Shown here: positions 11,907-29,060 of the stretch, piece by piece
How the letters are laid out: each line of letters begins with the position of its first letter
Numbering within the stretch: the stretch's first letter is position 1
Assembly: GCA_019058445.1 (NCBI GenBank)
Contig: JAHPZA010000003.1
Coordinates: forward strand, 64,001 to 128,000
Direction: 5' to 3'
From: Promethearchaeota archaeon
GTDB taxonomy: Archaea > Asgardarchaeota > Lokiarchaeia > Sigyniarchaeales > SOKP01
Length of the DNA stretch: 64,000 nt
The notes under the pieces: generated by a model
The model's input: only the letters and a program-made list of their open reading frames with translations
Databases searched by the model: none
Told to the model about the DNA's origin: nothing
Translations under genes and position numbers: made by a program

Positions 11907-12015
11907 AATAATATTAAATACCCGAATTTCTATAAATTTTATATAATTAAACAAAAATAGAAAAAGATTACAAAATTTAATAACCCACAATTTTAATTAT
12001 ATTAACAACATATCA

Positions 12016-12792: not shown

Positions 12793-12834
12793 GGTTACTA
12801 GTTTTTAAGTTAAAATTAAAGCCGAAACAGCAGA

Positions 12835-14268
12835 CTATTTTATTTTTTTAAGATTAGCAAAGTCTACAATATGTTTCGGTATTCTATAACTTGGACTTTT
12901 AATTTGAGCGGCACCACTTTCAATAGCTAATCTTGGCATGCCATACAAAATACATGTTTCTTGGGATTCGGCAATTGTTTTTCCTCCGATTCGTTTAATT
13001 GCCTCTAATCCATCGACACCATCCTCTCCCATACCGGTCAGTAAAATTCCCAAGGTTTTTTTTCGAAAGACTTTACAAGCAGAAAAGAATAACACGTCAA
13101 TTGAGGGAATACAATAATGCACTGGGTCACCTGAAAATATGTGGATACAAGGCTTATTATTTTTAACAAAAATTGACATGTGTCTGCCACCTGGTGCAAA
13201 ATAGACAATTCCTGGTTGAAGATACTCTCCTTCAATGCCTACCTTAATATGAATGGGACAAGTCTCATTTAAACTGCTAATGAAAGAATGAATAAATGGA
13301 TCGCTTAAATGTTGGACTACTAAAATTGGACATGAGATATTAGGAGGAATCTCCTTTAATACGGTTTTTAATGTTCGTGGACCGCCTACACTCGCTCCAA
13401 TAACAATTACATTAGATCCTAAATGAACCCCTTTTAATGGGGTTAGATCGGTTCTTTCTAATACTTTATTTCTTTTTATTTCTTTCTTTAAAATAGATTT
13501 TGATTTATGCGTTAAAGGATGAATTGCGTTTTCTGGTTTTTTGACTGAAATTTTTATCGAATGCTTTGCTTTTTCAGCTTTTGTTTCTTTAACTTCTTTT
13601 TGTTTGATTGATTCTTTAATTCCTTCCTTTTGTATCGACTTTTGCGCCTCAACTTTCTTAGTTTTTGGCTTTATTTTAACTTCTGTTGTTTCATTGGATT
13701 TTTTCACGCTGGTCAAGTCTAATTTATTGGTCTCCTCTGTTTCTAGTATAGGTTTTAATTCATTTATGTATTTACCAAATTTAAAAATCTCACTCACTAG
13801 CTCTTGTCGAATATAGGTCTTTTTAATTATGCTATTTTCTTTTTCAAATATTCTTTTAATTTGGGACTTCGAGGCTAGAAGAACTTTAGCAAGCAGTTCT
13901 TCTTTAAACCTTGGTAAATTTTTTGCTCCTAATCCTCCCGGTTTAATTACATAATCAAAGGCTCCCATTAATAACGCTTGGATTGAAGTATCCATAGTTT
14001 GAGGATTAACTGCTGATAAGATAATTGTCGGAGTAGGATTATAGTCCATTATTTTTTTAAAGGCATCAAGACCGTTCATTTCGGGCATAATTAAATCAAG
14101 GATTAATACATCTGGATGATGTTTTTTTACTAAATTTATTGCCTCTACTCCATTTTTTGCATAATCAGCAATTTTAATTGTTTCATCAATTGAAAGAATA
14201 TTTGTAATCGATTTTCTTAAAAACTCTGAATCATCAGCGATTATAACGCTTATTGTCTCACTACTCAT
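12835..14268 (-). CDS. cheB: Chemotaxis methylesterase CheB with long Lys-rich linker
   Basis: Receiver domain (ADDS, LDLIMP, KP) and methylesterase triad GASVGG / VQHL / GMGEDG. Confidence 0.92.
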   Translation of the reverse strand: MSSETISVIIADDSEFLRKSITNILSIDETIKIADYAKNGVEAINLVKKHHPDVLILDLIMPEMNGLDAFKKIMDYNPTPTIILSAVNPQTMDTSIQALLMGAFDYVIKPGGLGAKNLPRFKEELLAKVLLASKSQIKRIFEKENSIIKKTYIRQELVSEIFKFGKYINELKPILETEETNKLDLTSVKKSNETTEVKIKPKTKKVEAQKSIQKEGIKESIKQKEVKETKAEKAKHSIKISVKKPENAIHPLTHKSKSILKKEIKRNKVLERTDLTPLKGVHLGSNVIVIGASVGGPRTLKTVLKEIPPNISCPILVVQHLSDPFIHSFISSLNETCPIHIKVGIEGEYLQPGIVYFAPGGRHMSIFVKNNKPCIHIFSGDPVHYCIPSIDVLFFSACKVFRKKTLGILLTGMGEDGVDGLEAIKRIGGKTIAESQETCILYGMPRLAIESGAAQIKSPSYRIPKHIVDFANLKKIK

Positions 14269-14333
14269 ATTTTAGAAAACCTCTTTGTTCTTTATTTTTT
14301 TTCTTAATATTTTGTCCCTTACTTTAATGATAT

Positions 14334-15299
14334 TTATATCCCTAAATTTGATGTTAAACACATAAAAAGTTCATCTAAACCCTCTCCTGTCAAAGCGGAA
14401 GTTTCAAAAAATTGAAAGTTATATCGGTCAGCAAATTTGTAGGCATTGCTTCTGATTTCTTCTCTATTCTCTACTTTATCAATTTTATTCCCTACAATTA
14501 TGTAAAGGATCGAAGAATTTTTGATGAAATGGCGGGCTTCTTCAATCCACTCGTTAATCATTCCTAATGTTTCTTGTTTAGAATAATCGAATACAATTAG
14601 AACTGCCTTTGAGTGGTTATAGAAATGCCTACGTATCTTTGCAAAACTTTTTTTGCCTCCTAAGTCAAACAGTGAAAATGTTATTTTCATATCTTTCAAA
14701 ATTTGAAGTTCTTTTTCAATTATTGAAAGACCTATAGTAGGTTTATATTGCTCAATAAATTCACCATTAACAAACATGTTTGCTATGGCACTTTTGCCCA
14801 CATTATCTGGTCCAATTAGTACAATCTTATTTATTGAATTTTTACTATTAGAATGGTTGTTGGATTCTAGTTCTACGTTTCCGCCATTAACAAGATTAGG
14901 AAGTTTCGTCGAAATTTTTCGATCATTTAGAATTTGTGATGCTTTTTCTGCCACAATGTATGAATACGGGATAAATTTGTCAATATCAGAGTAAGCATCT
15001 GCTACTAATACAAATAATGCTCTAGTTGGTCCAACATTTCCCAGTTCTAAATAGAACAAACGATAGTCATTAGTATCAAATGTACCACTGCCATAAGATG
15101 TATCGGCGAATCTTTTAATTTTATTAAGAGCCCCTTCAAGGATGCTCATAATCGCTCCAATAATCTCTTCATTAAAATTTTTTACTGATTGGCGAGCAAT
15201 AATTAATCCATCCAAATCTACAATTAACGTAGCAATTAATTCATCAACTTTTTTCAAAAAATTGGCTAACAATTCTTCTAATAGCGTGACGCGCAACAT
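14334..15299 (-). CDS. Roadblock/LC7 domain fused to Rab-like small GTPase
   Basis: Roadblock N-terminus ATLIVDLDGLIIA...IIGAIMS. GTPase motifs G1 GPDNVGKS, YKPTIG, DLGGK, NKID, ETSAL. Confidence 0.88.
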   Translation of the reverse strand: MLRVTLLEELLANFLKKVDELIATLIVDLDGLIIARQSVKNFNEEIIGAIMSILEGALNKIKRFADTSYGSGTFDTNDYRLFYLELGNVGPTRALFVLVADAYSDIDKFIPYSYIVAEKASQILNDRKISTKLPNLVNGGNVELESNNHSNSKNSINKIVLIGPDNVGKSAIANMFVNGEFIEQYKPTIGLSIIEKELQILKDMKITFSLFDLGGKKSFAKIRRHFYNHSKAVLIVFDYSKQETLGMINEWIEEARHFIKNSSILYIIVGNKIDKVENREEIRSNAYKFADRYNFQFFETSALTGEGLDELFMCLTSNLGI

Positions 15300-15428
15300 T
15301 TTTAATTTATTCTAACTTTAAGTTAGAGAATTTATACTCAAAATCTTAATATTTTAGCTATTTTTAAACTCAATGATAAACAAAAATTTTTATAGCGATA
15401 GAACAACAATAAATTCCTTTCAAATCTA

Positions 15429-16610
15429 TTAAGCTCTAGAAAATTTTGACGCATATCTTACTATATAATCCTTAATGTGGTAATTTGGACTTATTATTTC
15501 GGCAAAACCATATTTGGCTGCAAATTTTGGCATTCCGTAGAGAATAGCTGTTTCTTCAGATTCTGCAATTGTAACCCCTCCCGATTTTTGAATTGCCCCC
15601 AATCCTTGAACTCCATCCTTACCCATTCCAGTTAACAAAATACCTAAAGTATTTTTATTGAATGCTTTTGCTGCCGAATAGAATAACACATCAATAGAAG
15701 GTTTACAAAAATTAACCGGTTCCCCATTAAAGATTCTGATTGTTGGAGATCTTAAGTTCCTATTTTTTACCATAATTTCCATGTGTTTGTCCCCTGGAGC
15801 AATATAAATATATCCAGATTTAATTATTTCACCATTATTTGGAATTTTTACTTTTAACTTGCACAAATCATTCATTGATTCAGCAAATTGATTCATAAAA
15901 AAGAGATTTAGATGTTGTACAATGAATATAGATCCTGGAAAATTTGAGGGAATTCCCTTCAAGATTGATTTTAAGGTTTTGGGACCACCTACACTGGATC
16001 CCATGACTATGATGCATGGTACCTCAGATCCACTCTTAACTTGCGGGATTTTAGATGCTTTTTCTTGAACAACTACTTTTAAATCATGATGATTTGTGAT
16101 TTTAATAGGGACTATTTTCTCTGAATTTAATTTTTTCTCTAAAATTTCTTTTTTAACCTTAATTTCTGAAGCTAAAAGCACTTTATTTATTAACTGCGTT
16201 TTAAATTTAGGAAATTCCTCTTTCCATACTCCAGTAGGTTTAATAATATAATCAAAAGCTCCCAATAGGAGGGTTTGAATCGAATCATTTAATGTTTTTG
16301 ACGCTTCAGAGGGATTGAGAGCAGAAAAAACGATTGTTGGCACGGGATAATGCTTTGAAAGATATCGATATAACGTAATTCCATCCATTTTAGGCATAAT
16401 TAGATCTAAAAGCAAAACATCTGGATTTGTTTTTTCAATTTTTTCGATGGCTTCTTCTCCATTTCTTGCGATATCAACTACTTCGATTTGAGGGTGTTCC
16501 GAAAGCATATCTGATAATATTTTTCTCTGATAAGAAGAGTCTTCTGCTATGAGGACTTTGACCTTCTTATGTGAACTATCCTCAGTTTTCATGTTCTTGA
16601 GAGCACTCAT
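15429..16610 (-). CDS. cheB: Chemotaxis methylesterase CheB
   Basis: Receiver domain (AEDS, LDLIMP, KP) and triad GSSVGG / VQHL / GMGKDG. Confidence 0.92.
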   Translation of the reverse strand: MSALKNMKTEDSSHKKVKVLIAEDSSYQRKILSDMLSEHPQIEVVDIARNGEEAIEKIEKTNPDVLLLDLIMPKMDGITLYRYLSKHYPVPTIVFSALNPSEASKTLNDSIQTLLLGAFDYIIKPTGVWKEEFPKFKTQLINKVLLASEIKVKKEILEKKLNSEKIVPIKITNHHDLKVVVQEKASKIPQVKSGSEVPCIIVMGSSVGGPKTLKSILKGIPSNFPGSIFIVQHLNLFFMNQFAESMNDLCKLKVKIPNNGEIIKSGYIYIAPGDKHMEIMVKNRNLRSPTIRIFNGEPVNFCKPSIDVLFYSAAKAFNKNTLGILLTGMGKDGVQGLGAIQKSGGVTIAESEETAILYGMPKFAAKYGFAEIISPNYHIKDYIVRYASKFSRA

Positions 16611-16677
16611 AAATGATTCTACTTTAGTCCTTTGAATACCTTAAAATTGATTAAAATAAATAGTTTTAAAACTATTT

Positions 16678-17067
16678 CTAGGCTTTGGCCATAGTGTGCC
16701 TTGTTAGAATTTGTTCCACTTGGTCCTTCTTGAAGGGTTTACGAATAAAATCCTTTGCGCCTAGTTGAGTCGCTTCAAGTATTAAATCCTGTTGGCCAAT
16801 TGCAGACACTACAATAATTGATGCTGTTTTATCAAAGTTTAGAATACCTTTAATGGCATCTAGTCCTCCTAGCTGTGGCATGATAAGATCCATAGTAACC
16901 AAATCTGGCTTTAATTTTTTATATAGTTCAATTGCTTCATTTCCATTTTTCGCTTCTGCAATGACTTCAGCAAAATTAGTGCCGTTTATAATGTTCTTAA
17001 GCATGGCTCTAGTGAATCCAGCATCATCAACAATTAATACCTTTTTTTTGTGATTCTCTTTAGACAT
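16678..17067 (-). CDS. cheY: Chemotaxis response regulator CheY
   Basis: Stand-alone receiver: VDDA, TMDLIMP, VSA, KPF. Confidence 0.9.
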   Translation of the reverse strand: MSKENHKKKVLIVDDAGFTRAMLKNIINGTNFAEVIAEAKNGNEAIELYKKLKPDLVTMDLIMPQLGGLDAIKGILNFDKTASIIVVSAIGQQDLILEATQLGAKDFIRKPFKKDQVEQILTRHTMAKA

Positions 17068-17159
17068 GTTAACATTCCCCTAATTTTTCATAAAATTTAT
17101 GATAGGTTAATTTGAAAAATTTTCGTACTTTTTGTGAGTTTAACTAAGACGTACTTTTA

Positions 17160-17208
17160 TATAATTTTGATAAAGTAAGTATTTAAAAAATTAATGAAAT
17201 GCAAAATA
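17160..17208 (-). promoter_or_regulatory. Duplicated promoter-like element upstream of cheY-cheB-GTPase-cheB
   Basis: 47/49 identical to 29012-29060. Contains TTTAAATA, a TATA-box-like sequence, on the minus strand. Confidence 0.7.
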
Positions 17209-17313
17209 GTTGCCCAGAATAACACAAAAAATTTGAAAAAAATTTGATTTAAATATTAATTCTATTTTGGATTTTGAGAGTTTAAGATCAGTAATCTTAT
17301 CTAAATTACTTAT

Positions 17314-17964
17314 CTATTTAATTTTAAGAAGGTCAAATATTATTTTAATAGTATCTATACTTGGAATAAAACAAATTATCCCATCTATACTTAATTCTTC
17401 AATTTTTATATTTGTGTTAATTATTATTATAGAATCTGTGAGCTCTGAATAATTTGCAGCCACTGAATTACATATTGCGCCAATTGAATCTAAAGCTAAA
17501 ACAGGAACATTAGGAATTAGTTTGATGCCCATTAAATTTGCTAATGAGCTTGCATAATGTCCCGCTAATATATTGCCGATTTCAGAAATGATACTCCTCG
17601 TCAAATCATCTAATTCCTCGATTTCGTGTATATCATCAATAGATATCTCAGAAATCGAATTGATCATGTTAATCATGGATTCTTTAGTAAAGATTTGTAG
17701 TACAGTTAAGTTATGCTTTCCTGTTATATTTGAACAAATTCCAAAGATATTAGTTTCTTGATCGGGAAAAATATTATTTAACTCCCAAAAAGGAATGATT
17801 TTAATGCCAGTTAAAGAAACTTCAACTCGCTTATTAACAAGTTCTGATAACGCAACAACAGCATTACCGGACCCAATATTTCCTAATTCTTTTAACGAAT
17901 CTAACTGCTCAGGACTCAATTTTATTGAGTTATTTACCCCTTCAAGACCTTCATTTAATTTCAT
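17314..17964 (-). CDS. cheC: CheC-family CheY-P phosphatase
   Basis: Two E-x-x-N motifs: KELGNIGSGNA and SEIGNILAGHY. Confidence 0.9.
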   Translation of the reverse strand: MKLNEGLEGVNNSIKLSPEQLDSLKELGNIGSGNAVVALSELVNKRVEVSLTGIKIIPFWELNNIFPDQETNIFGICSNITGKHNLTVLQIFTKESMINMINSISEISIDDIHEIEELDDLTRSIISEIGNILAGHYASSLANLMGIKLIPNVPVLALDSIGAICNSVAANYSELTDSIIIINTNIKIEELSIDGIICFIPSIDTIKIIFDLLKIK

Positions 17965-17984
17965 ATTCTTTAAACCTCTAAATT

Positions 17985-18530
17985 TTAATTAATTTTTTTA
18001 GTAATTGTATCTTTGCTTGTTTTTATTTGGATTATATCATCGCCTATATTATATATGATTGTTCTCCCTTTTTTTCCTCCAACTTCCTCAAATAGAATTT
18101 TAATATTTAATGAGCTTAATACTTCTCTTGCGATTTTAATATTTTGCTTACCGATACAGTTAAATTCATTATCAAAAATAGTTGCACCTCCAATCATAAC
18201 TGCTTTTAAATTCTTTAATTTTGCTCCGCTCTGTATCATTTTGTCCACTAAATCTTTTATAGAAGTATTTACAAATTTATGAGGTAATTTTATCTGGGAA
18301 GCTTCTTTATTTTCAGAGGTCGGAAGTAAGACATGGGACATAGCATGTATATGATTTATCGAATCTGTTAACAGAATTGCGATACATGAGCCCAATCCAT
18401 ATATAGAAATCGTTTTGTAGTTTTTATATTTCTTACTCGAGTTTACTAATGCATAATGTGCGATGGGTAAAAAAATCTCTCCGTTTTGATTAGGTTTGAT
18501 TATGCGATCAATTCGTTCTTCATAAACCAT
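17985..18530 (-). CDS. cheD: Chemoreceptor glutamine deamidase CheD
   Basis: GLGSCIA (catalytic Cys), SHVLLP (His), IGGATIF, IGKQNI, EVGGKKGRTI. Confidence 0.9.
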   Translation of the reverse strand: MVYEERIDRIIKPNQNGEIFLPIAHYALVNSSKKYKNYKTISIYGLGSCIAILLTDSINHIHAMSHVLLPTSENKEASQIKLPHKFVNTSIKDLVDKMIQSGAKLKNLKAVMIGGATIFDNEFNCIGKQNIKIAREVLSSLNIKILFEEVGGKKGRTIIYNIGDDIIQIKTSKDTITKKIN

Positions 18531-18544
18531 AATGAATTAACTTT

Positions 18545-19444
18545 TTAACTTTTAATATAAAAATGATTCCTTCCATCAAGTAACTTGAGATTGAGATTGG
18601 AATTTAAAAGAGTTTCAGTTTTTCCAAGGACCAATAATCCGCCATTCGTTAATTTATCTTTTAAAATCTTTAATAGTTTCTCTCTAAAACCTCTATTTAT
18701 ATATATCAATAAATATCTACAAAAAATAACATCATACTTTTGAGATCTTTGATGTCCCTTTGTGACATCCTCTATGATAAAATCTACTTTTTTTTTAATA
18801 TCATTGCAAATTAAATATTTGGGTCCTAATCGATCATGAAATTTAGTAAAATATGCTAATTTATATCTCTCAGGAGTTTCTTTTAAAGCCTCTTCACTAT
18901 AGAATCCCATTCGTGCCATTTTAATAATATTACTATCAACATCAGAAGCAACTAGATCATAGGTAGGAAAATCATTGATTTCTTCCCTTAATTGCTCAAG
19001 CATCATAGCTAGAGAATAAGGTTCCTCGCCTGAGGCACATGCACATGACCAAATTTTCAACCCCTCCTCTTTATAAGCATAATCTCTGCGAATTTTGTCA
19101 TAAATAGAAAGCTTAGAGACATCAATATTATCAGAATAATTTTGAAATTTTCCATTTTTACAAGCAAGAATAATCTGACGAAGTTTTTCATAAATTTCGA
19201 TGTTTCTAAAGAAATAAGTATAATTTATAGTAAACCTGTCCAAAAACAATTCAATTTCTTGGGGATTTGATGAAATATAATCAAGATAACTTTGGTCGGT
19301 TGTCAAACCGACTCGAATCATTCGAGCTTTAATCCTTCTTTCAAGAAAATTCCTTCGATAACATTCAAACTCTATACCGGTTGAATCTTTCAATTTTTCT
19401 ATCAAATTGTTGATGGATTTAGGGTTAAATGCTATACTTTCCAT
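18545..19444 (-). CDS. cheR: Chemotaxis methyltransferase CheR
   Basis: TYFFRN, IWSCACASGEEPYSLAM, YDVIFCRYLLIY, GGLLVLGKTE. Confidence 0.92.
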   Translation of the reverse strand: MESIAFNPKSINNLIEKLKDSTGIEFECYRRNFLERRIKARMIRVGLTTDQSYLDYISSNPQEIELFLDRFTINYTYFFRNIEIYEKLRQIILACKNGKFQNYSDNIDVSKLSIYDKIRRDYAYKEEGLKIWSCACASGEEPYSLAMMLEQLREEINDFPTYDLVASDVDSNIIKMARMGFYSEEALKETPERYKLAYFTKFHDRLGPKYLICNDIKKKVDFIIEDVTKGHQRSQKYDVIFCRYLLIYINRGFREKLLKILKDKLTNGGLLVLGKTETLLNSNLNLKLLDGRNHFYIKS

Positions 19445-19467
19445 TGAATTCTCTTCCTTTAAGAATT

Positions 19468-20037
19468 TTAAAGATTTTTCAATAACTCCTCGAGTTGGCT
19501 AATCCTTTTATCTATATGTTGAATTGAATATTTCACATGAGAATGAATTTCTTTAATTTCATTTACGATATGTGAAATTTTAATATGAACACTTCTGTTT
19601 ATTTGGGGTTTTAAAGTGCTCATAGCTTTTGATTGTTGAACTTGAAGTAATTGAGAACCTAAATTATTTGAAGCGGTTGTTTTTGCGATCTGAGCTGAGT
19701 TGTTTTTTTGTCTAGATTCGCCAGGAAAACCATATCTTTCAGGACCTCTCTTGATTTCGCTTGATATATATTGAAATTCAATAGGTTCTCTTCCCTCTTT
19801 TATAACCTCATATTTAAAACCATTAAATTCTTTATTATTTTTGAGTTTGCCTGCCCAATTTGCGGCAATATATCTATGAAATAAACGAGATTGTAACCCT
19901 GCCCAAATCCAAATTAAATTTAATGGTTTATCTACAAACAAATATACACTATTAGTTTCAAAGAGCTTATCGGGATTTTTTGTGAGATTTTCACCGTTGA
20001 TTTTATATACATAATTAAAGTATTCGTTTTGTTGCAT
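19468..20037 (-). CDS. Single gelsolin-like domain protein with C-terminal coiled coil
   Basis: Gelsolin repeat signature SVYLFVD...IWIWAG...A..L...VIKEGREPIEF, then a Q/S/N-rich linker and a heptad-like tail. Confidence 0.8.
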   Translation of the reverse strand: MQQNEYFNYVYKINGENLTKNPDKLFETNSVYLFVDKPLNLIWIWAGLQSRLFHRYIAANWAGKLKNNKEFNGFKYEVIKEGREPIEFQYISSEIKRGPERYGFPGESRQKNNSAQIAKTTASNNLGSQLLQVQQSKAMSTLKPQINRSVHIKISHIVNEIKEIHSHVKYSIQHIDKRISQLEELLKNL

Positions 20038-20114
20038 ATCCCTTAGCCATTTTGATATTTTTTGTAAAAATTTGGATTATGTGGGAATTAAAAAAATATT
20101 CCCCATGTTTTTTT

Positions 20115-22025
20115 TTAAACTTCGTAAAATGTGGAGAGTGTATCTAATAATTCTTGTAAAGTCTCGAGTTCTGGAATAAAGAGAAAAGTGCCCTGAATCT
20201 CAAATTCTTTAATAATAACATTTGTAGTGATTACTAAAGAAAGTTCTTTCATCAATCCAATTTCTTCATTTAGGATTTTAAACAATTTCATGCCGGTATC
20301 TAAACTTATGTCCGGCGGCTCAGTCATCAATCTTATACTTAATAAATTCCCTAAAGCTGTAGTATAATGACTGGCTAATATATGACCGAGTTCTTTCATT
20401 GCATCAATATAAATTTCAGGAAAATCATTGATAGATTTCACGCTTCTTAAATCTATTTTTGCTTTTCCGTTATCACCTATTATGATAGAAGTCAAATTAG
20501 TGATGTCTGGTACTTTAAATAAAGTTAGAACTGTTGCTCTGGTTTTTCCTTGAACTCCACTCCAGGAGACAAATAATTTCATATTTTTCTTGCTCATTTT
20601 TTTGGCAAACTGATCAATAGAAACGACCTCTACTGAGGGAATATTGATATCTACTCGCTTATTTATCATTTTTGCTAAGGCGTTAGCAGCATTACCAGCA
20701 CCAATGTTTCCAACTTCTCTTAAAGCATCTTTCTGAATATCTGTAAGTTCTAAGTCAATGAATTTATCGAGCGCTCCTCCCGGTTTAACAGGTTCAACCT
20801 TATCATAGATATCTAATTTATTGAATAGACTTTTTATAGCTTTTAAGTCTGGTATATAGAAAAAGATACCATTCATCTGTAAATCAGTAACTTTAATTGC
20901 TGTTTTTATAATTACCACATATTCAGATTGCTCTTGAAGCTCTTTAGCTAAGAAATTTCCTAAATTGCCCGCATTGCTCATAGCAAATTCAGGAACATCA
21001 AAAATCATTTTTGTATTTAATAAATCTGCTAATGCTGAAGCATAATGTCCCGCGAGAATATTTCCAAATTCCGTGACTGTAGAAATAGCAAAATCATCTA
21101 AATCTTTTTTAGTTTTTACTTTATCCGGATTAATCTTTGACTTTTTGCCCGCTAGATCTGCTATTAATTTCATTAATGGAGTTAATTCAAACACTTGAAG
21201 TATTGTAGATAATGAAGGCTTTCTTATATGCGAAAATATTCCACAGACAACTTCTGACTCATTACCAAATTGACGAGGTAACTGTTCTAGAGAAATAATA
21301 CCAACATCCGTAAGATCTACATCTATTCGTTTATTTATTAATCTTGAAAGAGCTGTGACTGCATTTCCACTTCCAATGTTCCCTACCTCCTGTAGTGTAT
21401 CTTTTTGCATTTTGGTAAGCTTCACTATATCGTGAACTATCGGCTGATGTGGTTTATCACTTGAAGGGATTATAATATCTTCAGTTCTTATTCTAGCAGG
21501 AAGCTTTTCTGGGATATAACGCTCTGGTAATTGATTGATATCTTGAGAATTTCTCATTAATTGTTGATCAGGAGCTAATGGAACTATTAATGACTCAAGA
21601 TCTAAAACAACATATGTTTCCTCATCTAAGACTCCTACAGATCTAATGTATTTCATATCAATTTCAGTCTTGATAATCGCAGATTTATTCTGAAAAATTG
21701 AAATTGGGACTTCTCTCATGCTAATAACTGAATCCACATAGAGTGCAATATTAATATCCTGTAATTCTAATAAAACTAAGCGAGTATTTTTTGATAACTT
21801 TAAATGATCTCCATTTGAGTGAATCCTTTGTCCCATGGCTATTATTGTATAAATCTCCCCTCTAACATCAGCAATTCCCACAATTGATCTTTCTGCTAAA
21901 GGGATTGGAATAATTAATTCTGGAACATAAATTTCTCTTACATCTGTTATTTCAAGAAAATATATTCGATCATCTACATTAATTTCTACTAATTTTATTG
22001 TTTGTACATATTCGTTTTCTAACAT
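20115..22025 (-). CDS. CheW-CheC-CheC fusion protein
   Basis: N-terminal CheW (IPIP...IVGIADVRGEIYTII...ALYVDSV). Two CheC modules follow, with motifs EVGN, EFGN, EVGN and ELGH. Confidence 0.85.
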   Translation of the reverse strand: MLENEYVQTIKLVEINVDDRIYFLEITDVREIYVPELIIPIPLAERSIVGIADVRGEIYTIIAMGQRIHSNGDHLKLSKNTRLVLLELQDINIALYVDSVISMREVPISIFQNKSAIIKTEIDMKYIRSVGVLDEETYVVLDLESLIVPLAPDQQLMRNSQDINQLPERYIPEKLPARIRTEDIIIPSSDKPHQPIVHDIVKLTKMQKDTLQEVGNIGSGNAVTALSRLINKRIDVDLTDVGIISLEQLPRQFGNESEVVCGIFSHIRKPSLSTILQVFELTPLMKLIADLAGKKSKINPDKVKTKKDLDDFAISTVTEFGNILAGHYASALADLLNTKMIFDVPEFAMSNAGNLGNFLAKELQEQSEYVVIIKTAIKVTDLQMNGIFFYIPDLKAIKSLFNKLDIYDKVEPVKPGGALDKFIDLELTDIQKDALREVGNIGAGNAANALAKMINKRVDINIPSVEVVSIDQFAKKMSKKNMKLFVSWSGVQGKTRATVLTLFKVPDITNLTSIIIGDNGKAKIDLRSVKSINDFPEIYIDAMKELGHILASHYTTALGNLLSIRLMTEPPDISLDTGMKLFKILNEEIGLMKELSLVITTNVIIKEFEIQGTFLFIPELETLQELLDTLSTFYEV

Positions 22026-22050
22026 AGTAAATACTCTACCTCTTTAATTT

Positions 22051-22887
22051 TCAAATGTCATTTTTAATGATAATTCCTTTCCAAATGAGTTCTTTTTCCC
22101 TTTCTTCTTTAGAATGTTCAGAAAAAAAATCGGGTTGTTTAAATATTGAAATTTGACCCCCATTCGAGAATTCATACACATAATCTAGCATATCATCCAT
22201 ACTTGTGAAGTTAAAGCCTGCTATGCTCAATTCGGAATTGTTAACTATTAATAAATCCTCACTATTGAATAGGGTATATTCATCGTTAATTTCTAACCAT
22301 AATTCAGGAATTATCTCTTTTTTATCAATTGTAATTATATCATCCAGGGGTATATCCCGATACGTTTTATTTGTAGCAAAAATTATCTGGTCTGGAATAG
22401 TTTTAAGGAGTTTAGCAGTTTTATTAATCCCCTCTATTGCTTGAGTATATTTTTGTGAATCGAAGACATCATAGCACAAAACAAAAATAACTCCGCCTCC
22501 ATCTAATTTAGCTATTAAATCTACCACGTTTTCTGCATCTGAAGTTGGATTAATTTGTATATTCTCTACAAAAATATCACGAATATACTTAAAATATTGA
22601 TAAAATCTCCATTTCACTGCAGATTTATCATTTATCTCTCGACTAATGAAAGTCTGATAGAGATTTTGTAACTGCTTCTCTGATAGTTTTGAATAATCAG
22701 CGCTCGTGTCATAGTCATCCCCAATATTAACAAATTCATTTGATTTATTTGATTTTGATTTTTTCGCAACTTCATCTACATAAATCTTAAGTTCCTCTAT
22801 AGTAAATCCAGGCGCAATATATTCTACTAAATAAAGCAATCTCTTTTTGGATTTATCCTGTAATAAATCATAATATTGTATTGTCAT
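22051..22887 (-). CDS. Hypothetical acidic protein within the che operon
   Basis: 278-aa ORF, 25-31 bp from its neighbours. VDLIAK...IFVLC weakly resembles a restriction-endonuclease-like fold. Confidence 0.7.
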   Translation of the reverse strand: MTIQYYDLLQDKSKKRLLYLVEYIAPGFTIEELKIYVDEVAKKSKSNKSNEFVNIGDDYDTSADYSKLSEKQLQNLYQTFISREINDKSAVKWRFYQYFKYIRDIFVENIQINPTSDAENVVDLIAKLDGGGVIFVLCYDVFDSQKYTQAIEGINKTAKLLKTIPDQIIFATNKTYRDIPLDDIITIDKKEIIPELWLEINDEYTLFNSEDLLIVNNSELSIAGFNFTSMDDMLDYVYEFSNGGQISIFKQPDFFSEHSKEEREKELIWKGIIIKNDI

Positions 22888-22918
22888 TTTTTTTCTCCTT
22901 TATTTATTTAATATACAT

Positions 22919-24940
22919 TTAACCAAAGAAATATGATTCTAAATCAGAAATACTCATTTTTTCTTCTCCTTTATTTTTCAGATAGTACATAATTTCTTTT
23001 TCTTGATATGCTAACACATTTTTAATAGAGAATGAGATTATATACTCATTTTCTTCTTTAGATTTTGAAACTTTATTTTCGGTATTTGAAGATACTAATT
23101 CAAAGGTATCTGGTATTGTGTCTGTTATTAATACATCCTTTATTTCCACATTCGAATTATTTCTCATTGTAATACTTATCGCAAATTCATCTGCATCACG
23201 TCCAGGAAAGATTTCTTTTCCAATTGTCAGATTACGACGCTTATGTGTGACCTTTATCTTAGGTTTTTTCATGTCTGATAAGATATTTTTCACTACATAA
23301 TATTCAGGTATTTCGATTTCTGCCAGATTCTTGTTTTTTATATAATAACAGCTGACTTCTAACGGAAATTCATATGCTTTATTATAATCTGGAGTCATTG
23401 CCCGAATTGGATATGTCAGTTCTAATTGTCCATTTATCCCTATTAAATCCCTTATTTGATTATTCGTTAAATTTATAATTAATTCTAAAGCATGTTCCTT
23501 AGATGGATCATCATCTTGAGGTGTAATTTTGAGGGTAATATCATCTATTTTCATGTCTCCTGAAGAGTTTTTAAGCTTAATTTGTGCAAGATCAATAGGA
23601 GGCTTAAAATCTTCTGGAATTGTCTCATTAATTATAATACCTTTAATAGGAACAATGCCCGTATTATGAATAATAATTTTATTAAATAATTCTGATTCTT
23701 CAAATGACTTGATTTCTTTTTGAGAGATATCTTTTTCAAAATAAAATCCTATCACTTCAATTGTTGTATCTTCCACTTGTAAGCTTACATTAGTGTTTCT
23801 CTCAATAGCATAATCCAATGAATAAGTTAGCTTTCTTGAAAATTTAGGTTCATTCTCCTCATGAAGTTCCCATTTATTAGTATTAAATGTTTCACCAGGT
23901 CGTAAAATAACTTTATTTCCTTCCTTAGTCATATCTAAATCTACATATTTTGTAGATCTCGTTTTATCGGTAATTAAAACGTTTTTCAATTGCATAGTAA
24001 AATCACTATGATTCGCAAAGATAAATGAGCATTCCCATTGATTTGGTTCTGTTTCTTTCTCTTCCACATCTATGACATGCTTTGCGTGGGAATATGCTGA
24101 GAATTCTTTAATATCAGTTTCTGAGACAATATAATTTTCTAATTCATATGTCATAGTAATAATCCCCGTCCTAATCTGCTTATTTTTTTCTGGAATTATT
24201 TTAGCTATAATAATTACCTGTCTCTGTTCTCCAGGTTTTAATTCTCCTAAATTCCAAGATAATTTATTGTTTTTAATTTTTATATCTGCTTTCGAGTCGC
24301 TTGAACATTCTAAATCATAAAAATCCTTAGGAATTTCTTTTTCAGCATGAATATTTTTAATGATATAATTTGATTGATTATGTAAATCAATTAAAAATTT
24401 AACTGTATTTTCTTGACCAAATAACAAAATATATCGATCATCTTGACCAATCATAGGAATTTCTGTAAAATCCTTTACTGCTTTTATATCCTTATTAAGA
24501 ATCTCTATTGATTCATAAATCTTAAGAGGATCTGATAGATCATCTAAACTACTAATGTTGTATCTAATATTCTTATTAGTTTGTGGTTCAAATATCCCAA
24601 GACTCAACTCATTTTGAATATCTAAATTGGTATATTGAGAGCCTAAGATTTGAATGCGAGTATCCCACATTCGATCTTTATATGAATTATTTATTATTGA
24701 TACATTGCCATAGCCATTAGCAGATTTTCTTTGCATAGTATGATCATACTGAAATTCTAAAGTTTCCTCATTAACTATTGTAATTTCAGATATACTTTCT
24801 GCTGTTTTTGAAATTTGAACCTCATTTGTTTCATATTTTCCTAAGTGCTTTGTTTCTTCCATAAATTTGAGAGGTACTCCCAAAAAATTTGGACCGATTT
24901 TGGTCCTTAATTCAGTTTGATTAATGCATTTAAATCCCAT
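22919..24940 (-). CDS. Cytoplasmic multi-beta-sandwich (DUF11/Ig-like) protein
   Basis: Repeated N(T/S)G/S..I.(D/E)TIP..F modules and WNLGELKPGE. No signal peptide or TM segment. Confidence 0.6.
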   Translation of the reverse strand: MGFKCINQTELRTKIGPNFLGVPLKFMEETKHLGKYETNEVQISKTAESISEITIVNEETLEFQYDHTMQRKSANGYGNVSIINNSYKDRMWDTRIQILGSQYTNLDIQNELSLGIFEPQTNKNIRYNISSLDDLSDPLKIYESIEILNKDIKAVKDFTEIPMIGQDDRYILLFGQENTVKFLIDLHNQSNYIIKNIHAEKEIPKDFYDLECSSDSKADIKIKNNKLSWNLGELKPGEQRQVIIIAKIIPEKNKQIRTGIITMTYELENYIVSETDIKEFSAYSHAKHVIDVEEKETEPNQWECSFIFANHSDFTMQLKNVLITDKTRSTKYVDLDMTKEGNKVILRPGETFNTNKWELHEENEPKFSRKLTYSLDYAIERNTNVSLQVEDTTIEVIGFYFEKDISQKEIKSFEESELFNKIIIHNTGIVPIKGIIINETIPEDFKPPIDLAQIKLKNSSGDMKIDDITLKITPQDDDPSKEHALELIINLTNNQIRDLIGINGQLELTYPIRAMTPDYNKAYEFPLEVSCYYIKNKNLAEIEIPEYYVVKNILSDMKKPKIKVTHKRRNLTIGKEIFPGRDADEFAISITMRNNSNVEIKDVLITDTIPDTFELVSSNTENKVSKSKEENEYIISFSIKNVLAYQEKEIMYYLKNKGEEKMSISDLESYFFG

Positions 24941-24998
24941 GTTTATTTTGCTCCATTTGATTTATCTTTTATTTTTTATTACATATTTTTGACTAATT

Positions 24999-27089
24999 TT
25001 AATAAATATCATTTAATTGTGAGTATTGCAATTCGTTTAATTTAGAGTTTATAATATTAAAAACATCAAGTATTAAACAAATAGAACCGTCGCTCAGGAT
25101 TGTTGAGCCTGAAATATAGTTGGTAATAGAATATTCTGATTGAAATGGTTTCACCACCGCATCAATTTGTTCAAGAAGCTCATCTGCAATTAATATTGCT
25201 GATGAATTCTCATCTTTCTGACATAAAACTGCCAATTTAGTGTGTGAATTTTTCTTTACTTTACCATTACTATTTAGTTTCAAAAGTTTATCCAATTTAA
25301 TTATGGGTAGAAGACTTGAGTTGATTTTATAATATTTTGACTCTCCAACATACTCCAGAGAATCGGGACTATAAAAATAAATTTGTTTTATGTTTTCCGT
25401 AGGAATCGCGAAGATATCACCTGCGATTTTTAATAATTGTGCCTTAATAATTGCCCTACTAAAGGGTACAATTACTGAGAATTTCGTTCCGATTCCTTTT
25501 TCTGTGAAAATTTGAAAAGAACCTCCAAGTTTTTTAACCTTTTCATCAACAATAGCTAAACCCATTCCTCGTCCAGAGATCATATCTGCATCCGTAAGGG
25601 TTGAAAAGCCAGGCATCAAAAGAAATTTATTCAAAACTTCATTTGAAAGAAGTTCTACCTCGTTGGGAGTGTAATATCCCTTAGCAATGATATTTTCTCT
25701 TATTTTATCATAATTAATCCCTTTTCCATCATCAGAGATTTCAATATAGATTAATCCTGCTCTTCGATATGTCTTTAGTTTTAAGACTCCTGTTTCATTC
25801 TTATTTTTAGAAATCCTTTCTTTTGGTGATTCAATTCCATGATAAATTGCATTTCTAAGAAGATGGACTAATGGTGAATTAAGTTCTTCTAAAATTTTTC
25901 TGTCCATCTCCACATTAATGCCTTCTAGGATGAATTTTATTTTTTTACCTGTTTCTACCGCAACATCACGTACCAATCTTTTATATTTCCTAAAAGTTGA
26001 TTCTACTCTGACAAGTTTTAAGTCAAAAATGATTTCTTGAATATCAAGGAGGGATTTATCAATATTATCAAAAAGGATACTTATCTCCTGATCTTGTCTC
26101 TCCTTGAGTATTTGACTAATTTGATTTTTAATTATGATTAATTCTCCAAAGTAATCCATTAATTTTTCCAATGTATCAATATCAACTTTTATTCTTGAAA
26201 TTGTCGCTCTTTCATTCTGGAAATTGTCTATTATCTTAGACACCGGTTCAATTTCTCCATCAATGATTTCTTCTTCGTAAGTGTTTTCTTTTTCACTTTC
26301 CAGGCTACTTTCAAATGTGTTCTCATCCTGCATCTTTATACTAAAGTTAGTCAGAAGAGCTTCAAATTTGTCATGATTTAACTCTGTTATAACTTTATTA
26401 TCAATTTCAAGGATTTCTTCCAAAATTTGAGAAATTTGGGCTGAATTTTTTTGAGTAATATAGTAAATTTCAAAATCTCTATCAAAATTTCCAATTTCTA
26501 ATAATCGAGGTTCAGGATTACTATAACAAATTTGACCAACTTCATTGAGCGCTCTAAAAATAATAAATAAGCGTACTTTTTTAAATACACAAGTGGCCTG
26601 TAATCTGAGATATATCTTATAATATTTATTATTTTTAACGCTTAGTGTTTGTTTAATTTTATCCTGAGGAATTGGTTTAATAAAGGTAATTTCATATTCA
26701 TTCTCGAAATCATCAAAGGTATCTTTAATTTCGTCTAAAAATTTAACATCAATATCAGTATTATCCCCTTTTTTAAGTCTGCTCACTACTGTTCGAAGAA
26801 CATCAAGACTTTCAAAAAAGATTGAAGTAAATTTACTGATTTTTTCGGTTGAAACTTTATTATCTTTAGCCTTGTTCAAAAAATCTTCTAAAAAATGGCA
26901 GAATTTTGAAACGTTTTCAAAACCTGCCATGGCAGTCAATCCTTTTAAAGTATGGAATGCGAAAAAAAGTTCTTGAACTGGTTTTTTATTGCGAGGATTT
27001 TCTTCTAGCTTGAGAACTTCATCTTCTACTTTTTGGATAAGATCTTCGGATTCATTTATAAAAAGCTGAATATCTTCTTTAGATGCCAT
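24999..27089 (-). CDS. cheA: Chemotaxis histidine kinase CheA
   Basis: P1 FHTLKG, P2 domain, P3 LMDYFGELII, P4 HLLRNA/DDGKG/PGFST/SGRGMG, P5 SGSTILSDGSICLILD. Confidence 0.95.
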   Translation of the reverse strand: MASKEDIQLFINESEDLIQKVEDEVLKLEENPRNKKPVQELFFAFHTLKGLTAMAGFENVSKFCHFLEDFLNKAKDNKVSTEKISKFTSIFFESLDVLRTVVSRLKKGDNTDIDVKFLDEIKDTFDDFENEYEITFIKPIPQDKIKQTLSVKNNKYYKIYLRLQATCVFKKVRLFIIFRALNEVGQICYSNPEPRLLEIGNFDRDFEIYYITQKNSAQISQILEEILEIDNKVITELNHDKFEALLTNFSIKMQDENTFESSLESEKENTYEEEIIDGEIEPVSKIIDNFQNERATISRIKVDIDTLEKLMDYFGELIIIKNQISQILKERQDQEISILFDNIDKSLLDIQEIIFDLKLVRVESTFRKYKRLVRDVAVETGKKIKFILEGINVEMDRKILEELNSPLVHLLRNAIYHGIESPKERISKNKNETGVLKLKTYRRAGLIYIEISDDGKGINYDKIRENIIAKGYYTPNEVELLSNEVLNKFLLMPGFSTLTDADMISGRGMGLAIVDEKVKKLGGSFQIFTEKGIGTKFSVIVPFSRAIIKAQLLKIAGDIFAIPTENIKQIYFYSPDSLEYVGESKYYKINSSLLPIIKLDKLLKLNSNGKVKKNSHTKLAVLCQKDENSSAILIADELLEQIDAVVKPFQSEYSITNYISGSTILSDGSICLILDVFNIINSKLNELQYSQLNDIY

Positions 27090-27121
27090 ATAATCCCCTT
27101 TATCATTCTTTTTCCATATAT

Positions 27122-27511
27122 TTATTTCTTATCTTTAATTTTTAGAATACGCTCCATAACTTCTACAATCTGTTCAGTTTTGAAAGGCTTTTGAATAAAA
27201 TCTTTAGCTCCTTTTTTTGCCGCTTCAAGTACTAAAGCTTCTTGACCTAAAGCAGATACAACCACGATGATCGCCTTTGGATCAACCTTTAAAAGATCTT
27301 CAATAGTTTCAATGCCTCCCTTTTCAGGCATTACAAGATCCATCGTGACCATATCTGGTTTTAATTTTTTGTATAGGGCAATCGCTTCTTTTCCATTTTT
27401 CGCTTCACCGACGACTTCACCGTAATTAGTTTTTGAAATTATATTCTTCAGAATATTTCGTGTAAATTGGGCGTCATCAACTACCAATATTTTACTTTTA
27501 TTATTTGACAT
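27122..27511 (-). CDS. cheY: Chemotaxis response regulator CheY
   Basis: VDDA, TMDLVMP, VSALGQ, KPF. Adjacent to cheA. Confidence 0.92.
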   Translation of the reverse strand: MSNNKSKILVVDDAQFTRNILKNIISKTNYGEVVGEAKNGKEAIALYKKLKPDMVTMDLVMPEKGGIETIEDLLKVDPKAIIVVVSALGQEALVLEAAKKGAKDFIQKPFKTEQIVEVMERILKIKDKK

Positions 27512-27538
27512 TTTTCTAACTCCTATTTTTGGTTAATA

Positions 27539-28063: not shown

Positions 28064-28121
28064 ATTTTTTTCTCCTAATCTTTTTTTTACGCATTACAAA
28101 CTTTTTTTTATCTAAATTTTC

Positions 28122-28949: not shown

Positions 28950-29011
28950 ATTAGCTTTCTATAAATATATCCCCTAAATATACAATAATTCATTTATTGA
29001 TACTTATATTT

Positions 29012-29060
29012 TATAATCTTGATAAAGTAAGTATTTAAAAAATTAATGAAATACAAAATA
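29012..29060 (-). promoter_or_regulatory. Duplicated promoter-like element upstream of the longin-cheW-cheY-cheA operon
   Basis: 47/49 identical to 17160-17208, including a 34-bp perfect core. Confidence 0.7.

What the first reader, a model, noticed from the sequence alone, without database searches (positions are those of the whole stretch)
14334..15299. Roadblock-Rab fusion GTPase between two cheB genes, with G3 Gln replaced by Lys
Seen: an N-terminal roadblock domain and a Rab-like G domain whose G3 reads DLGGK rather than DxxGQ. Known: the Myxococcus MglA GTPase and its roadblock GAP MglB control polarity downstream of the Frz chemosensory system. Inference: this is a one-polypeptide analogue of that module linked to a Che system. 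The lost catalytic Gln suggests slow or partner-dependent hydrolysis.
Basis: partly seen in the sequence, partly recalled or inferred. Interest (0 to 1): 0.8.

Follow-up and report, generated by a model that had tools for sequence, protein, structure and literature searches.

The report
Gln-less Roadblock-GTPase in Asgard chemotaxis cluster
This Asgard (Lokiarchaeia-type) gene fuses an MglB-like Roadblock domain to a Rab-like GTPase whose whole family lacks the usual catalytic glutamine. In every locus examined the short form lies among chemotaxis genes, usually just upstream of an unusual second CheB, which gives one of the many Asgard small GTPases a testable signalling role.

Summary
ORF 14334-15299 (-) encodes 321 aa: an N-terminal Roadblock domain whose fold best matches MglB, and a Rab-like G domain with G1, G2, G4 and G5 intact and G3 = DLGGK. 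It lies between two cheB genes in a 15-gene che cluster.

Two corrections:
- The Lys is lineage-specific. None of the 119 relatives whose G3 could be read has Gln there; most have Leu or Ile. Five of the six other Roadblock-GTPase paralogs found in this genome read Gln there (the sixth gave no clean G3 match).
- The G domain is Rab-like, not MglA-like. Only the Roadblock half resembles the Mgl module.

The che link is strong. All 14 loci with the short (313-325 aa) form carry che genes next to it. In 11 a long-linker CheB ('CheB2') follows directly, and in 2 another receiver-domain protein does. In a 201-genome phylum sample the gene was found only in genomes with this che-cluster type.

Roadblock-GTPase fusions in Asgard are published (Klinger 2016, Tran 2024). 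I found no paper on the che-linked, Gln-less subfamily. This scan had already flagged the same family in other genomes.

Most likely it is a slowly or partner-dependently hydrolysing GTP switch coupled to a CheA-phosphorylated receiver protein. The mechanism is inferred, not shown. Verdict: new variant of a known kind; interest 0.62.

The parts
14334..15299 (-). Roadblock-GTPase gene (321 aa, P0001)
   Evidence: ORF and translation. Pfam Ras and Robl_LC7. More than 120 full-length relatives.
14925..15299 (-). Roadblock/LC7 domain, residues 1-125
   Evidence: AF2 model with pLDDT 85. Foldseek top hits are MglB, with TM 0.68-0.70 and E 9e-6. Pfam Robl_LC7 at 23.3 bits against a cut-off of 23.
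14337..14843 (-). Rab-like G domain, residues 153-321. It follows a low-confidence linker at residues 126-152.
   Evidence: Pfam Ras E 1.7e-35. PDB sequence hits to Ypt51/Rab5, Rab39B and Thor-Rab. Foldseek hits to Rabs at TM 0.8-0.89.
14790..14813 (-). G1 P-loop GPDNVGKS. The residue at the Ras Gly12 position is acidic (Asp here).
   Evidence: Read from the sequence. In 69 relatives this position is Glu in 37 and Asp in 14.
14652..14666 (-). G3 DLGGK, with Lys216 at the position of the catalytic Gln
   Evidence: Read from the sequence. Family counts at this position: L 83, I 20, S 7, F 3, K 2, V 2, A 2, T 1, and no Q.
14478..14489 (-). G4 NKID, the guanine-specificity motif
   Evidence: Read from the sequence. 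N271 is in 68 of 69 relatives; K272 and D274 are in 69 of 69.
15300..15428 (-). 129-bp gap upstream of the gene. The 110 nt next to the ATG are conserved. They hold two TATA-like boxes and a perfect palindrome, TCTAAC-ttaaa-GTTAGA, at 15311-15327.
   Evidence: Alignment with L019 and L020. Identity is 87% and 84%, against 69% and 59% at third codon positions of the gene. The palindrome is unique in the window. A promoter or 5'UTR function is inferred.
12835..14268 (-). CheB2: receiver + methylesterase with a long insert (477 aa). It is the usual downstream partner gene.
   Evidence: Pfam and NCBIfam. Directly downstream of the GTPase in 11 of 14 loci. The phospho-acceptor Asp58 and the Ser293/His320/Asp416 triad are invariant in 65 relatives.
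13741..13869 (-). Conserved segment specific to CheB2, residues 134-176. It is followed by a variable Lys/Glu-rich linker at residues 177-272.
   Evidence: R154, Q155, F162, F164, G165, Y167 and P173 are invariant in 65 sequences. The segment is absent from CheB1.
15429..16610 (-). CheB1, a methylesterase of ordinary length (393 aa)
   Evidence: Pfam. It is the upstream neighbour only in the window's own clade.
12835..28949 (-). The whole co-directional che cluster. Gene order: 275-aa unknown, CheW, CheY, CheA, DUF11-like, 278-aa unknown, CheW-CheC, 189-aa unknown, CheR, CheD, CheC, CheY, CheB1, Roadblock-GTPase, CheB2.
   Evidence: Pfam. The same gene set is found at 41-62% protein identity in distant loci.

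Best explanation
The gene encodes a dedicated accessory component of a chemosensory cluster of the Lokiarchaeia type. It is a Roadblock-GTPase that still binds guanine nucleotide but cannot hydrolyse GTP by the usual Gln-dependent route.

I read it as a long-lived GTP switch or platform whose state is set by, or passed on through, a CheA-phosphorylated receiver protein encoded directly downstream. That protein is usually the long-linker methylesterase CheB2.

Proposed steps, all inferred:
1. The Roadblock domain gives a docking or dimerisation surface, as in MglB, Ragulator and Rag proteins.
2. The G domain cycles slowly or only with a partner.
3. The receiver protein, once phosphorylated, binds the module. 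This either couples receptor demethylation to the GTP state or relays the Che signal to a target other than the archaellum.

Shown here: the domain identities, motif conservation, family-wide Gln loss, conserved gene neighbourhood and matching occurrence across genomes.

Not shown here: nucleotide binding, hydrolysis rate, any physical contact, and the direction of signalling.
For: 1. The nucleotide-binding motifs are conserved in 69 relatives: G1 GxxxxGK[ST], G2 Thr188, G3 Asp212/Gly215, G4 NKxD and G5 SA. The Gln position is never Gln, and the Ras Gly12 position is Glu or Asp in 51 of 69.
2. Five of the six other Roadblock-GTPase paralogs found in the same genome read DxxGQ (the sixth gave no clean G3 match). 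The Gln-less proteins form one clade on a long stem (support 99).
3. All 14 short-form loci lie in a che context. In 11 the next gene is CheB2. In 2 it is another receiver protein, of 229 aa and 821 aa.
4. In two loci the GTPase-CheB2 pair sits away from the other che genes.
5. In a 201-genome phylum sample the ortholog was found only in genomes with this CheA type (5 of 6). The sixth genome's CheA contig ends too early to reach the gene. Two genomes of the same genus lack both.
6. CheB2 keeps its phospho-acceptor Asp and catalytic triad. It also has a conserved segment of its own that CheB1 lacks.
7. The Roadblock fold is closest to MglB, a known GTPase regulator.
8. Established knowledge: in Myxococcus, response regulators of the Frz system act on the MglA/MglB module (PMC3441718, PMC13408092).
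Against: - There is no biochemical or expression evidence.
- The Gln-less clade also holds long forms (431-498 aa) that lie outside che clusters. Gln loss is therefore not an adaptation to Che signalling as such.
- CheB2 does not directly follow the gene in 3 of 14 loci, so a strict GTPase-CheB2 pairing is not universal.
- A conserved promoter-like block in the 129-bp gap allows separate transcription in this clade.
- Ras-like proteins that lack Gln and carry an acidic residue at the Gly12 position may be permanently GTP-bound scaffolds rather than switches.
Confidence: 0.45

Rival explanations
1. The fusion is the output of the pathway, a one-chain analogue of MglB/MglA. CheY-P or another phosphorylated receiver toggles it, and it then controls cell polarity, protrusions or the actin cytoskeleton in an organism without an archaellum.
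For: - The Roadblock domain is structurally closest to MglB.
- The Pfam models for CheF and archaellin found nothing in this genome (92.6% complete) or in five other genomes with this cluster, although about 15 chemoreceptor genes are present.
- Conserved unknown genes in the cluster give weak gelsolin-like and Roadblock/longin-like leads.
- Chemoreceptor arrays have been seen in the non-swimming L. ossiferum (PMC9834061).
Against: - The G domain fails the defining MglA features: it lacks the intrinsic Arg, the Gln and the TxxGQ motif.
- The CheF and archaellin models also found nothing in five Asgard genomes that carry other che types. Their sensitivity in this phylum is therefore unproven.
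- The gelsolin and longin leads have no Pfam or profile support.
- The commonest neighbour is an adaptation enzyme, not a cytoskeletal gene.
Confidence: 0.25
2. It is a positioning or assembly factor for the chemoreceptor array. In some bacterial che operons ParA-like ATPases (ParC, PpfA) play this role. Nucleotide-dependent self-association would place or partition arrays, and CheB2 would be a passenger.
For: - It is conserved inside the che cluster.
- A nucleotide-binding protein with a dimerising Roadblock domain, no hydrolytic Gln and no membrane anchor would suit a scaffold.
Against: - There is no homology to ParA-type positioning proteins.
- The pair persists with CheB2 alone, away from CheA and CheW, in two loci.
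- Long-form relatives work in unrelated cassettes.
Confidence: 0.12
3. It is a pseudo-GTPase: a permanently GTP- or GDP-bound structural subunit with no switching at all.
For: - The Gln position holds Leu or Ile, as in the Q-to-L mutants used to lock Rabs in the GTP form. Several of the PDB hits are such mutants.
- The Gly12 position is acidic.
Against: G2 Thr188 and G3 Asp212/Gly215 sense the gamma-phosphate and Mg. They are invariant or nearly so across a clade with 50-60% overall identity. That pattern is expected if conformational switching still matters.
Confidence: 0.12
4. The neighbourhood carries no functional meaning. The gene merely hitch-hikes in a cluster inherited within one archaeal family.
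For: All confirmed genomes fall in one GTDB family. Much of the synteny could therefore be shared ancestry.
Against: - Gene order around it has been rearranged. The upstream gene is CheB1, CheC, the 189-aa-type gene or an unrelated gene, and the che context is still kept.
- The gene and the cluster are present or absent together.
- In the distant loci the che proteins are only 41-62% identical to the window's.
Confidence: 0.06

Closest known systems
Asgard Roadblock-GTPase ('RB-GTPase') architectures. Sources: Klinger et al. 2016, as summarised in PMC4917890, and Tran et al. 2024, PMC10933270.
   Same: An N-terminal Roadblock domain fused to a Ras-superfamily G domain in Lokiarchaeia-type genomes. 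The predicted two-domain shape matches a 542-aa paralog cluster at TM 0.81 over 310 residues.
   Different: Those papers list architectures without assigning a pathway. This subfamily is Gln-less, short (313-325 aa) and embedded in a che cluster. Five of the six other Roadblock-GTPase paralogs found in the same genome read DxxGQ.
The MglA/MglB polarity module with the Frz chemosensory system (Myxococcus, Thermus)
   Same: A Roadblock regulator plus a small GTPase, linked to a Che-like pathway through receiver-domain proteins. The Roadblock fold's best PDB match is MglB.
   Different: - One polypeptide here, against two there.
- The G domain is Rab-like and keeps Asp in G3. It has no intrinsic Arg finger and no Gln.
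- The genes lie inside the che cluster, whereas mglBA lies away from frz (PMC4316618).
Rag/Gtr GTPases
   Same: A small G domain and a Roadblock domain in one chain. Tran et al. group the Asgard fusions as 'Rag-like'. A weak Gtr1_RagA Pfam hit is present (26.9 bits).
   Different: - The domain order is reversed: Roadblock is N-terminal here.
- The best sequence and fold matches are Rabs.
- RagA and RagC keep the catalytic Gln; a RagA Q66L mutant structure is among the PDB hits.
Bacterial Group 1 Rup GTPases and the actinobacterial conservon (PMC4316618)
   Same: - Prokaryotic Ras-like GTPases wired into two-component-type signalling cassettes.
- Group 1 Rup also lacks the G3 Gln. A neighbouring protein with an invariant Gln was proposed there to supply it in trans. 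Here CheB2 has an invariant Arg-Gln pair.
- The weakest-but-only PDB sequence hit of the Roadblock profile is a conservon CvnB.
   Different: A different lineage and different neighbours: no Che genes there, and no Roadblock fusion in Rup.
Rap and RapGAP (eukaryotes; background knowledge, also cited in PMC4316618)
   Same: A Ras-like GTPase without the catalytic Gln, whose hydrolysis needs a residue supplied by the partner.
   Different: No RapGAP-like protein was identified here. This is an analogy only.

Membership tests
Ras-superfamily small GTPase | G1 GxxxxGK[ST], G2 Thr, G3 DxxG, G4 [NT]KxD and G5 SA | tested here: met
   GPDNVGKS, T188, D212-G215, N271-K272-I-D274 and S301-A302 are all conserved in 69 relatives. 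Pfam Ras E 1.7e-35.
Ras-superfamily small GTPase | Catalytic Gln directly after DxxG | tested here: not met
   Lys216 here. It is Leu, Ile, Ser or another residue in all relatives whose G3 could be read, and never Gln.
Rab family in the strict sense | C-terminal Cys prenylation motif | tested here: not met
   The C-terminus reads ...LTSNLGI with no terminal Cys. The family consensus ends ...LISNL.
Rab family in the strict sense | Closest similarity to Rabs in sequence and fold | tested here: met
   The best PDB sequence hits are Ypt51, Rab39B, Rab30, Rab22A and Thor-Rab. Foldseek's top 45 hits are all Rab or Rab-like (Rbj) proteins.
Rab family in the strict sense | RabF1-F5 signature motifs | not tested
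   Compared by eye only: partial matches, and the Trp of the KLQIWD motif is Phe211. No formal scoring was run.
Roadblock/LC7 (PF03259) | Pfam model at or above its gathering score | tested here: met
   23.3 bits against a cut-off of 23, covering residues 9-63 only. This is borderline, and about half of the relatives carry the precomputed hit.
Roadblock/LC7 (PF03259) | The alpha-beta-beta-alpha-beta-beta-beta(-alpha) fold | tested here: met
   AF2 secondary-structure order. Foldseek finds MglB, Asgard Roadblocks, LAMTOR2/3 and Rag C-terminal domains, with 81 hits at E<=1e-3.
MglA family | Intrinsic Arg finger beside the G2 Thr (Group 1) and a [TG]xPGQ G3 motif | tested here: not met
   Switch I reads Y-K-P-T188, and G3 reads D-L-G-G-K. 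The defining features are taken from PMC4316618.
Rag/Gtr family | N-terminal G domain followed by a C-terminal Roadblock domain | tested here: not met
   The order is reversed: Roadblock at residues 1-125 and the G domain at 153-321.
Asgard RB-GTPase architecture (Tran 2024) | N-terminal Roadblock, C-terminal small GTPase and no switch II insert, in an Asgard genome | tested here: met
   Architecture. Relatives are named Promethearchaeota or Lokiarchaeota. Shape match to a paralog cluster. The absence of a switch II insert is judged from the gap-free alignment to Ypt51.
CheB (the downstream partner, CheB2) | Receiver domain with a phospho-acceptor Asp, plus a Ser-His-Asp methylesterase triad | tested here: met
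   D58, S293, H320 and D416 are invariant in 65 sequences. NCBIfam CheB scores 336 bits against a cut-off of 293.

The most novel reading that the evidence does not exclude
In Lokiarchaeia that appear to lack an archaellum, the chemosensory pathway signals through a small GTPase. A CheA-phosphorylated receiver protein docks on the Roadblock-GTPase; this is usually CheB2, through its private conserved segment. The invariant Arg154-Gln155 pair of CheB2 would complete the crippled active site in trans, in the manner of a dual-finger GAP. GTP hydrolysis would then be gated by the Che signal, and the switch would relay it to the cytoskeleton or cell polarity. That would be a prokaryotic forerunner of receptor-to-small-GTPase-to-actin signalling in the closest relatives of eukaryotes.
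Probability: 0.12. Interest if true: 0.9.

Novelty: new variant of a known kind. Interest (0 to 1): 0.62.

Why it matters
Asgard genomes carry dozens of small GTPases; this one has about 60. Almost none of them has an assigned pathway.

Here one orthologous group has a precise and conserved context: a chemosensory cluster, usually next to a receiver-domain methylesterase. It also has a conserved biochemical oddity, the missing catalytic Gln.

That makes the question 'what do Asgard small GTPases do?' testable with a handful of recombinant proteins. It also offers a concrete case for asking whether coupling of sensory pathways to Ras-like switches predates eukaryotes.

The striking Lys is a local substitution, and the family state is the Q-to-L-like form.

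Tried and rejected
- **Complex prediction.** The GTPase alignment (A1) with the full-length CheB2 alignment (A4) gave 'no answer', score 0.00. This is not evidence either way.
- **Sequencing runs.** No RNA holder was listed for 12835-17300. The only holders are sediment, soil and marsh DNA metagenomes. It gives no information on expression.
- **Pattern scan of genome contigs.** One scan with the single protein found only one relative. The synteny survey was done through the look-up of encoding contigs and the genome search instead.
- **Roadblock profile against PDB sequences.** The only hit was a weak one to a conservon CvnB (E 0.32). Fold comparison was needed to confirm the domain.
- **CheB2's long insert as a globular GTPase-binding domain.** Rejected. 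Residues 177-272 are Lys/Glu-rich, variable in length and poorly conserved. Only residues 134-176 are conserved.
- **Search with CheB2 residues 128-180 alone.** It returned only close CheB2 relatives, so it was uninformative.
- **The 275-aa first gene of the cluster as a Roadblock/longin protein.** hhalign against the Roadblock profile gave probability 0.2%, and Pfam found nothing. The Atlas feature hits of 0.75-0.82 are leads only.
- **The 189-aa gene as gelsolin.** There is no Pfam hit, and the Atlas lead scores 0.80. Not established.
- **Neighbours of the long forms.** The two small genes beside the long form in L030 (an earlier scan note called similar neighbours V4R and Zn-finger proteins) and the upstream small genes in L038 and L039 match no Pfam family. 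The gene downstream in L038 has weak PAS hits.
- **Rfam on 12000-29500.** No family reached threshold.
- **The bacterial sigma-70 and terminator scan.** Not informative for an archaeon.
- **An identity threshold to define orthologs.** Rejected. Long forms outside che clusters reach 52-56% identity. Length (313-325 aa, no C-terminal tail) together with context separates the groups better.
Full report
**What is in the sequence**

ORF 14334-15299 on the minus strand encodes 321 residues.
- Pfam places a Ras-family G domain at residues 158-317 (E 1.7e-35).
- Pfam also gives a borderline Roadblock/LC7 match at residues 9-63 (23.3 bits, cut-off 23).
- An AlphaFold2 model built on 69 relatives is confident (pLDDT 86.8, pTM 0.86). 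Only the linker around residues 147-150 is poorly defined.
- The N-terminal 135 residues, modelled alone (pLDDT 85.2), show the Roadblock order of helices and strands. Their best PDB matches are Thermus MglB (TM 0.68-0.70, E 9e-6). Next come Asgard Roadblock proteins, Myxococcus MglB, LAMTOR subunits and the C-terminal domains of Rag GTPases.
- The G domain matches Rabs best. By sequence the top hits are Ypt51/Rab5, Rab39B, Rab30, Rab22A and the Thorarchaeota Rab. By fold, Foldseek's top 45 hits are all Rab or Rab-like (Rbj) proteins.
- G1 (GPDNVGKS), G3 (DLGGK) and G4 (NKID) can be read directly at 14790-14813, 14652-14666 and 14478-14489.
- The flanking genes are both receiver + CheB-methylesterase proteins, and the upstream gap is 129 bp.

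**The Gln loss belongs to the family; the Lys does not**

- A search of 5.8 billion proteins returned more than 120 full-length relatives at 50-91% identity. Nearly all are 309-328 aa, and where they have names these are Promethearchaeota or Lokiarchaeota (a few are labelled Thor-, Hod- or Hermodarchaeota).
- None has Gln after DxxG. The counts are Leu 83, Ile 20, Ser 7, Phe 3, Lys 2, Val 2, Ala 2 and Thr 1.
- Lys occurs only here and in the 91%-identical relative.
- The nucleotide-binding residues are invariant or nearly so: G163, G168, K169, T188, D212, G215, N271, K272, D274 and S301.
- The position equivalent to Ras Gly12 is Glu or Asp in 51 of 69 sequences.
- In the window's own genome, 26 small GTPases read DxxGQ and 13 read DxxGE.
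- Five of the six other Roadblock-GTPase paralogs found there read Gln at this position; the sixth gave no clean G3 match.
- In a tree, the Gln-less proteins form one clade on a long stem (SH-aLRT 99), apart from four of these paralogs.

**The link to chemotaxis genes**

The gene lies in a co-directional cluster from 12835 to 28949. It holds CheW, two CheY, CheA, a CheW-CheC fusion, CheR, CheD, CheC and two CheB. It also holds four conserved proteins without a family assignment.

I examined 13 further loci that encode the short form. They came from MAGs and metagenome contigs at 54-86% protein identity to the window's GTPase.
- All 14 loci, the window included, have che genes beside the GTPase gene.
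- The upstream neighbour varies: CheB1, CheC, a homolog of the 189-aa unknown, or an unrelated gene.
- The downstream neighbour is a long CheB in 11 loci.
- It is another receiver-domain protein in 2 loci: a 229-aa HisKA-like/receiver protein, and an 821-aa hybrid kinase that is followed by a Rag-like GTPase.
- It is a convergent partial gene in one locus.
- In two loci the GTPase-CheB2 pair stands alone, and in one of these it sits next to a V-ATPase operon.
- In the more distant clades the gene starts 6 bp after cheC.
- At least 26 contig lengths are shared between the hit lists for the GTPase and for CheB2. This agrees with the synteny.

In a 201-genome sample of the phylum:
- This CheA type (at least 54% identity) was found in six genomes, all in one GTDB family.
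- The GTPase ortholog was found in five of them.
- In the sixth, the CheA contig ends 7.4 kb downstream. That is short of the roughly 10 kb needed to reach the gene.
- Two genomes of the window's own genus lack both.

**Limits of the link**

Long forms of 431-498 aa carry an extra C-terminal tail and are also Gln-less. They nest within or beside the short forms in the tree but lie outside che clusters. Gln loss is therefore a trait of a wider Roadblock-GTPase clade, not a che-specific adaptation. All confirmed genomes belong to one family, so shared ancestry inflates the synteny counts. The rearranged upstream neighbours and the matching presence and absence across genomes argue against pure hitch-hiking.

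**The partner gene**

- CheB2 (477 aa here, 420-560 aa elsewhere) keeps the phospho-acceptor Asp58 and the Ser293/His320/Asp416 triad in all 65 sequences aligned.
- After the receiver domain it carries a segment at residues 134-176 that CheB1 lacks. In it R154, Q155, F162, F164, G165, Y167 and P173 are invariant.
- A Lys/Glu-rich linker of variable length follows.
- An invariant Arg-Gln pair next to a Gln-less GTPase recalls an earlier proposal for bacterial Group 1 Rup GTPases, where a neighbouring protein was suggested to supply the Gln in trans (PMC4316618). Here this is only a hypothesis.
- One complex prediction gave no answer and is not used as evidence.

**Transcription**

- The 110 nt before the ATG are 87% and 84% identical to two loci whose GTPase genes are only 69% and 59% identical at third codon positions.
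- This block holds two TATA-like boxes and a perfect palindrome at 15311-15327 that is unique in the window.
- A promoter or leader specific to this clade is plausible. No RNA data were available.

**Output of the pathway**

- Pfam models for CheF and archaellin found nothing in this genome (92.6% complete), which has about 15 chemoreceptor genes.
- They also found nothing in five other genomes that carry this cluster.
- They likewise found nothing in five Asgard genomes with other CheA types. Their sensitivity in this phylum is therefore unproven, and 'no archaellum' remains 'not found'.
- Chemoreceptor arrays and che genes have been reported in Ca. L. ossiferum without a known motility organelle (PMC9834061).

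**Comparison with what is known**

- 'RB-GTPase' architectures were catalogued by Tran et al. (PMC10933270).
- A predicted-structure search finds the same two-domain shape in a 542-aa paralog cluster (TM 0.81 over 310 residues). The architecture itself is therefore known.
- The Roadblock profile finds only 108 representatives among 1.84 billion proteins, mostly inside fusions of 310-540 aa.
- Full-text searches found no paper that combines Asgard, chemotaxis, CheB and GTPase. The papers read (PMC10933270, PMC9834061, PMC9680633, PMC13408092) do not describe a GTPase in an Asgard che cluster. The library lacks many subscription papers.
- This scan had already flagged the same family in other genomes, and earlier follow-ups reached similar conclusions. 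My checks were made independently of them.

**Verdict**

This is a real gene and a real, conserved context. I file it as a new variant of a known kind: a Gln-less, che-embedded subfamily of the Asgard Roadblock-GTPase fusions. The most likely role is a slow or partner-dependent GTP switch coupled to a phosphorylated receiver protein, usually CheB2 (confidence 0.45). The MglAB-like output reading is the main rival (0.25).

Noticed in passing
window 13741-13869 (-), CheB2 residues 134-176: The second CheB has a conserved segment of its own, with invariant R154, Q155, F162, F164, G165, Y167 and P173. A Lys/Glu-rich linker of variable length (residues 177-272) follows. CheB1 lacks both.
   Followed up: partly
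window 15300-15428: The non-coding block before the GTPase gene is more conserved than third codon positions (84-87% against 59-69%). It has two TATA-like boxes and a palindrome, TCTAAC-ttaaa-GTTAGA, at 15311-15327 that is unique in the window.
   Followed up: partly
window 19468-20037, 22051-22887, 22919-24940, 28122-28949 (all -): Four genes without a firm family assignment (189 aa, 278 aa, DUF11-like 673 aa, 275 aa) are conserved parts of this che cluster in distant loci (42-52% identity). Atlas features give weak gelsolin-like (0.80) and Roadblock/longin-like (0.75-0.82) leads for the 189-aa and 275-aa proteins. Pfam and hhalign give no support.
   Followed up: partly
window 12016-12792 (+): A 258-aa gene converges on cheB2. 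It has a sub-threshold Profilin hit over residues 13-103 (E 0.0085; 16.6 bits against a cut-off of 25). It is conserved at 78-91% identity only in the closest loci (L011, L019, L020). In distant loci EF-G takes its place.
   Followed up: partly
L030:8620-11035 (also L031, L032, L038, L039): Long forms (431-470 aa) of the Gln-less Roadblock-GTPase carry an extra C-terminal tail and lie outside che clusters. In L030 one sits beside two small Cys-containing proteins with no Pfam family. One of these appears to share the tail.
   Followed up: partly
L042:5980-9498: In one locus an 821-aa receiver-PAS-kinase-receiver protein follows the che-linked GTPase. After it comes a second GTPase of 307 aa that is Rag/Arf-like (Gtr1_RagA hit).
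   Followed up: no
whole genome G000 (script): Thirteen of the roughly 55 small GTPase genes read DxxGE (for example DFGGEE, DFAGED), with Glu where Gln is expected. This is a second non-canonical class in the same genome.
   Followed up: no
whole genome G000 and G150, G168, G186, G192, G195: About 15 chemoreceptor genes are present in G000, with a full che cluster. The Pfam models for CheF and archaellin match nothing in these genomes. The same models also match nothing in five other Asgard genomes, so their sensitivity here is unknown.
   Followed up: partly
window 20115-22025 (-): A 636-aa fusion joins CheW to three CheC-type matched stretches. It is conserved in all distant loci of this cluster (54-89% identity).
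   Followed up: no
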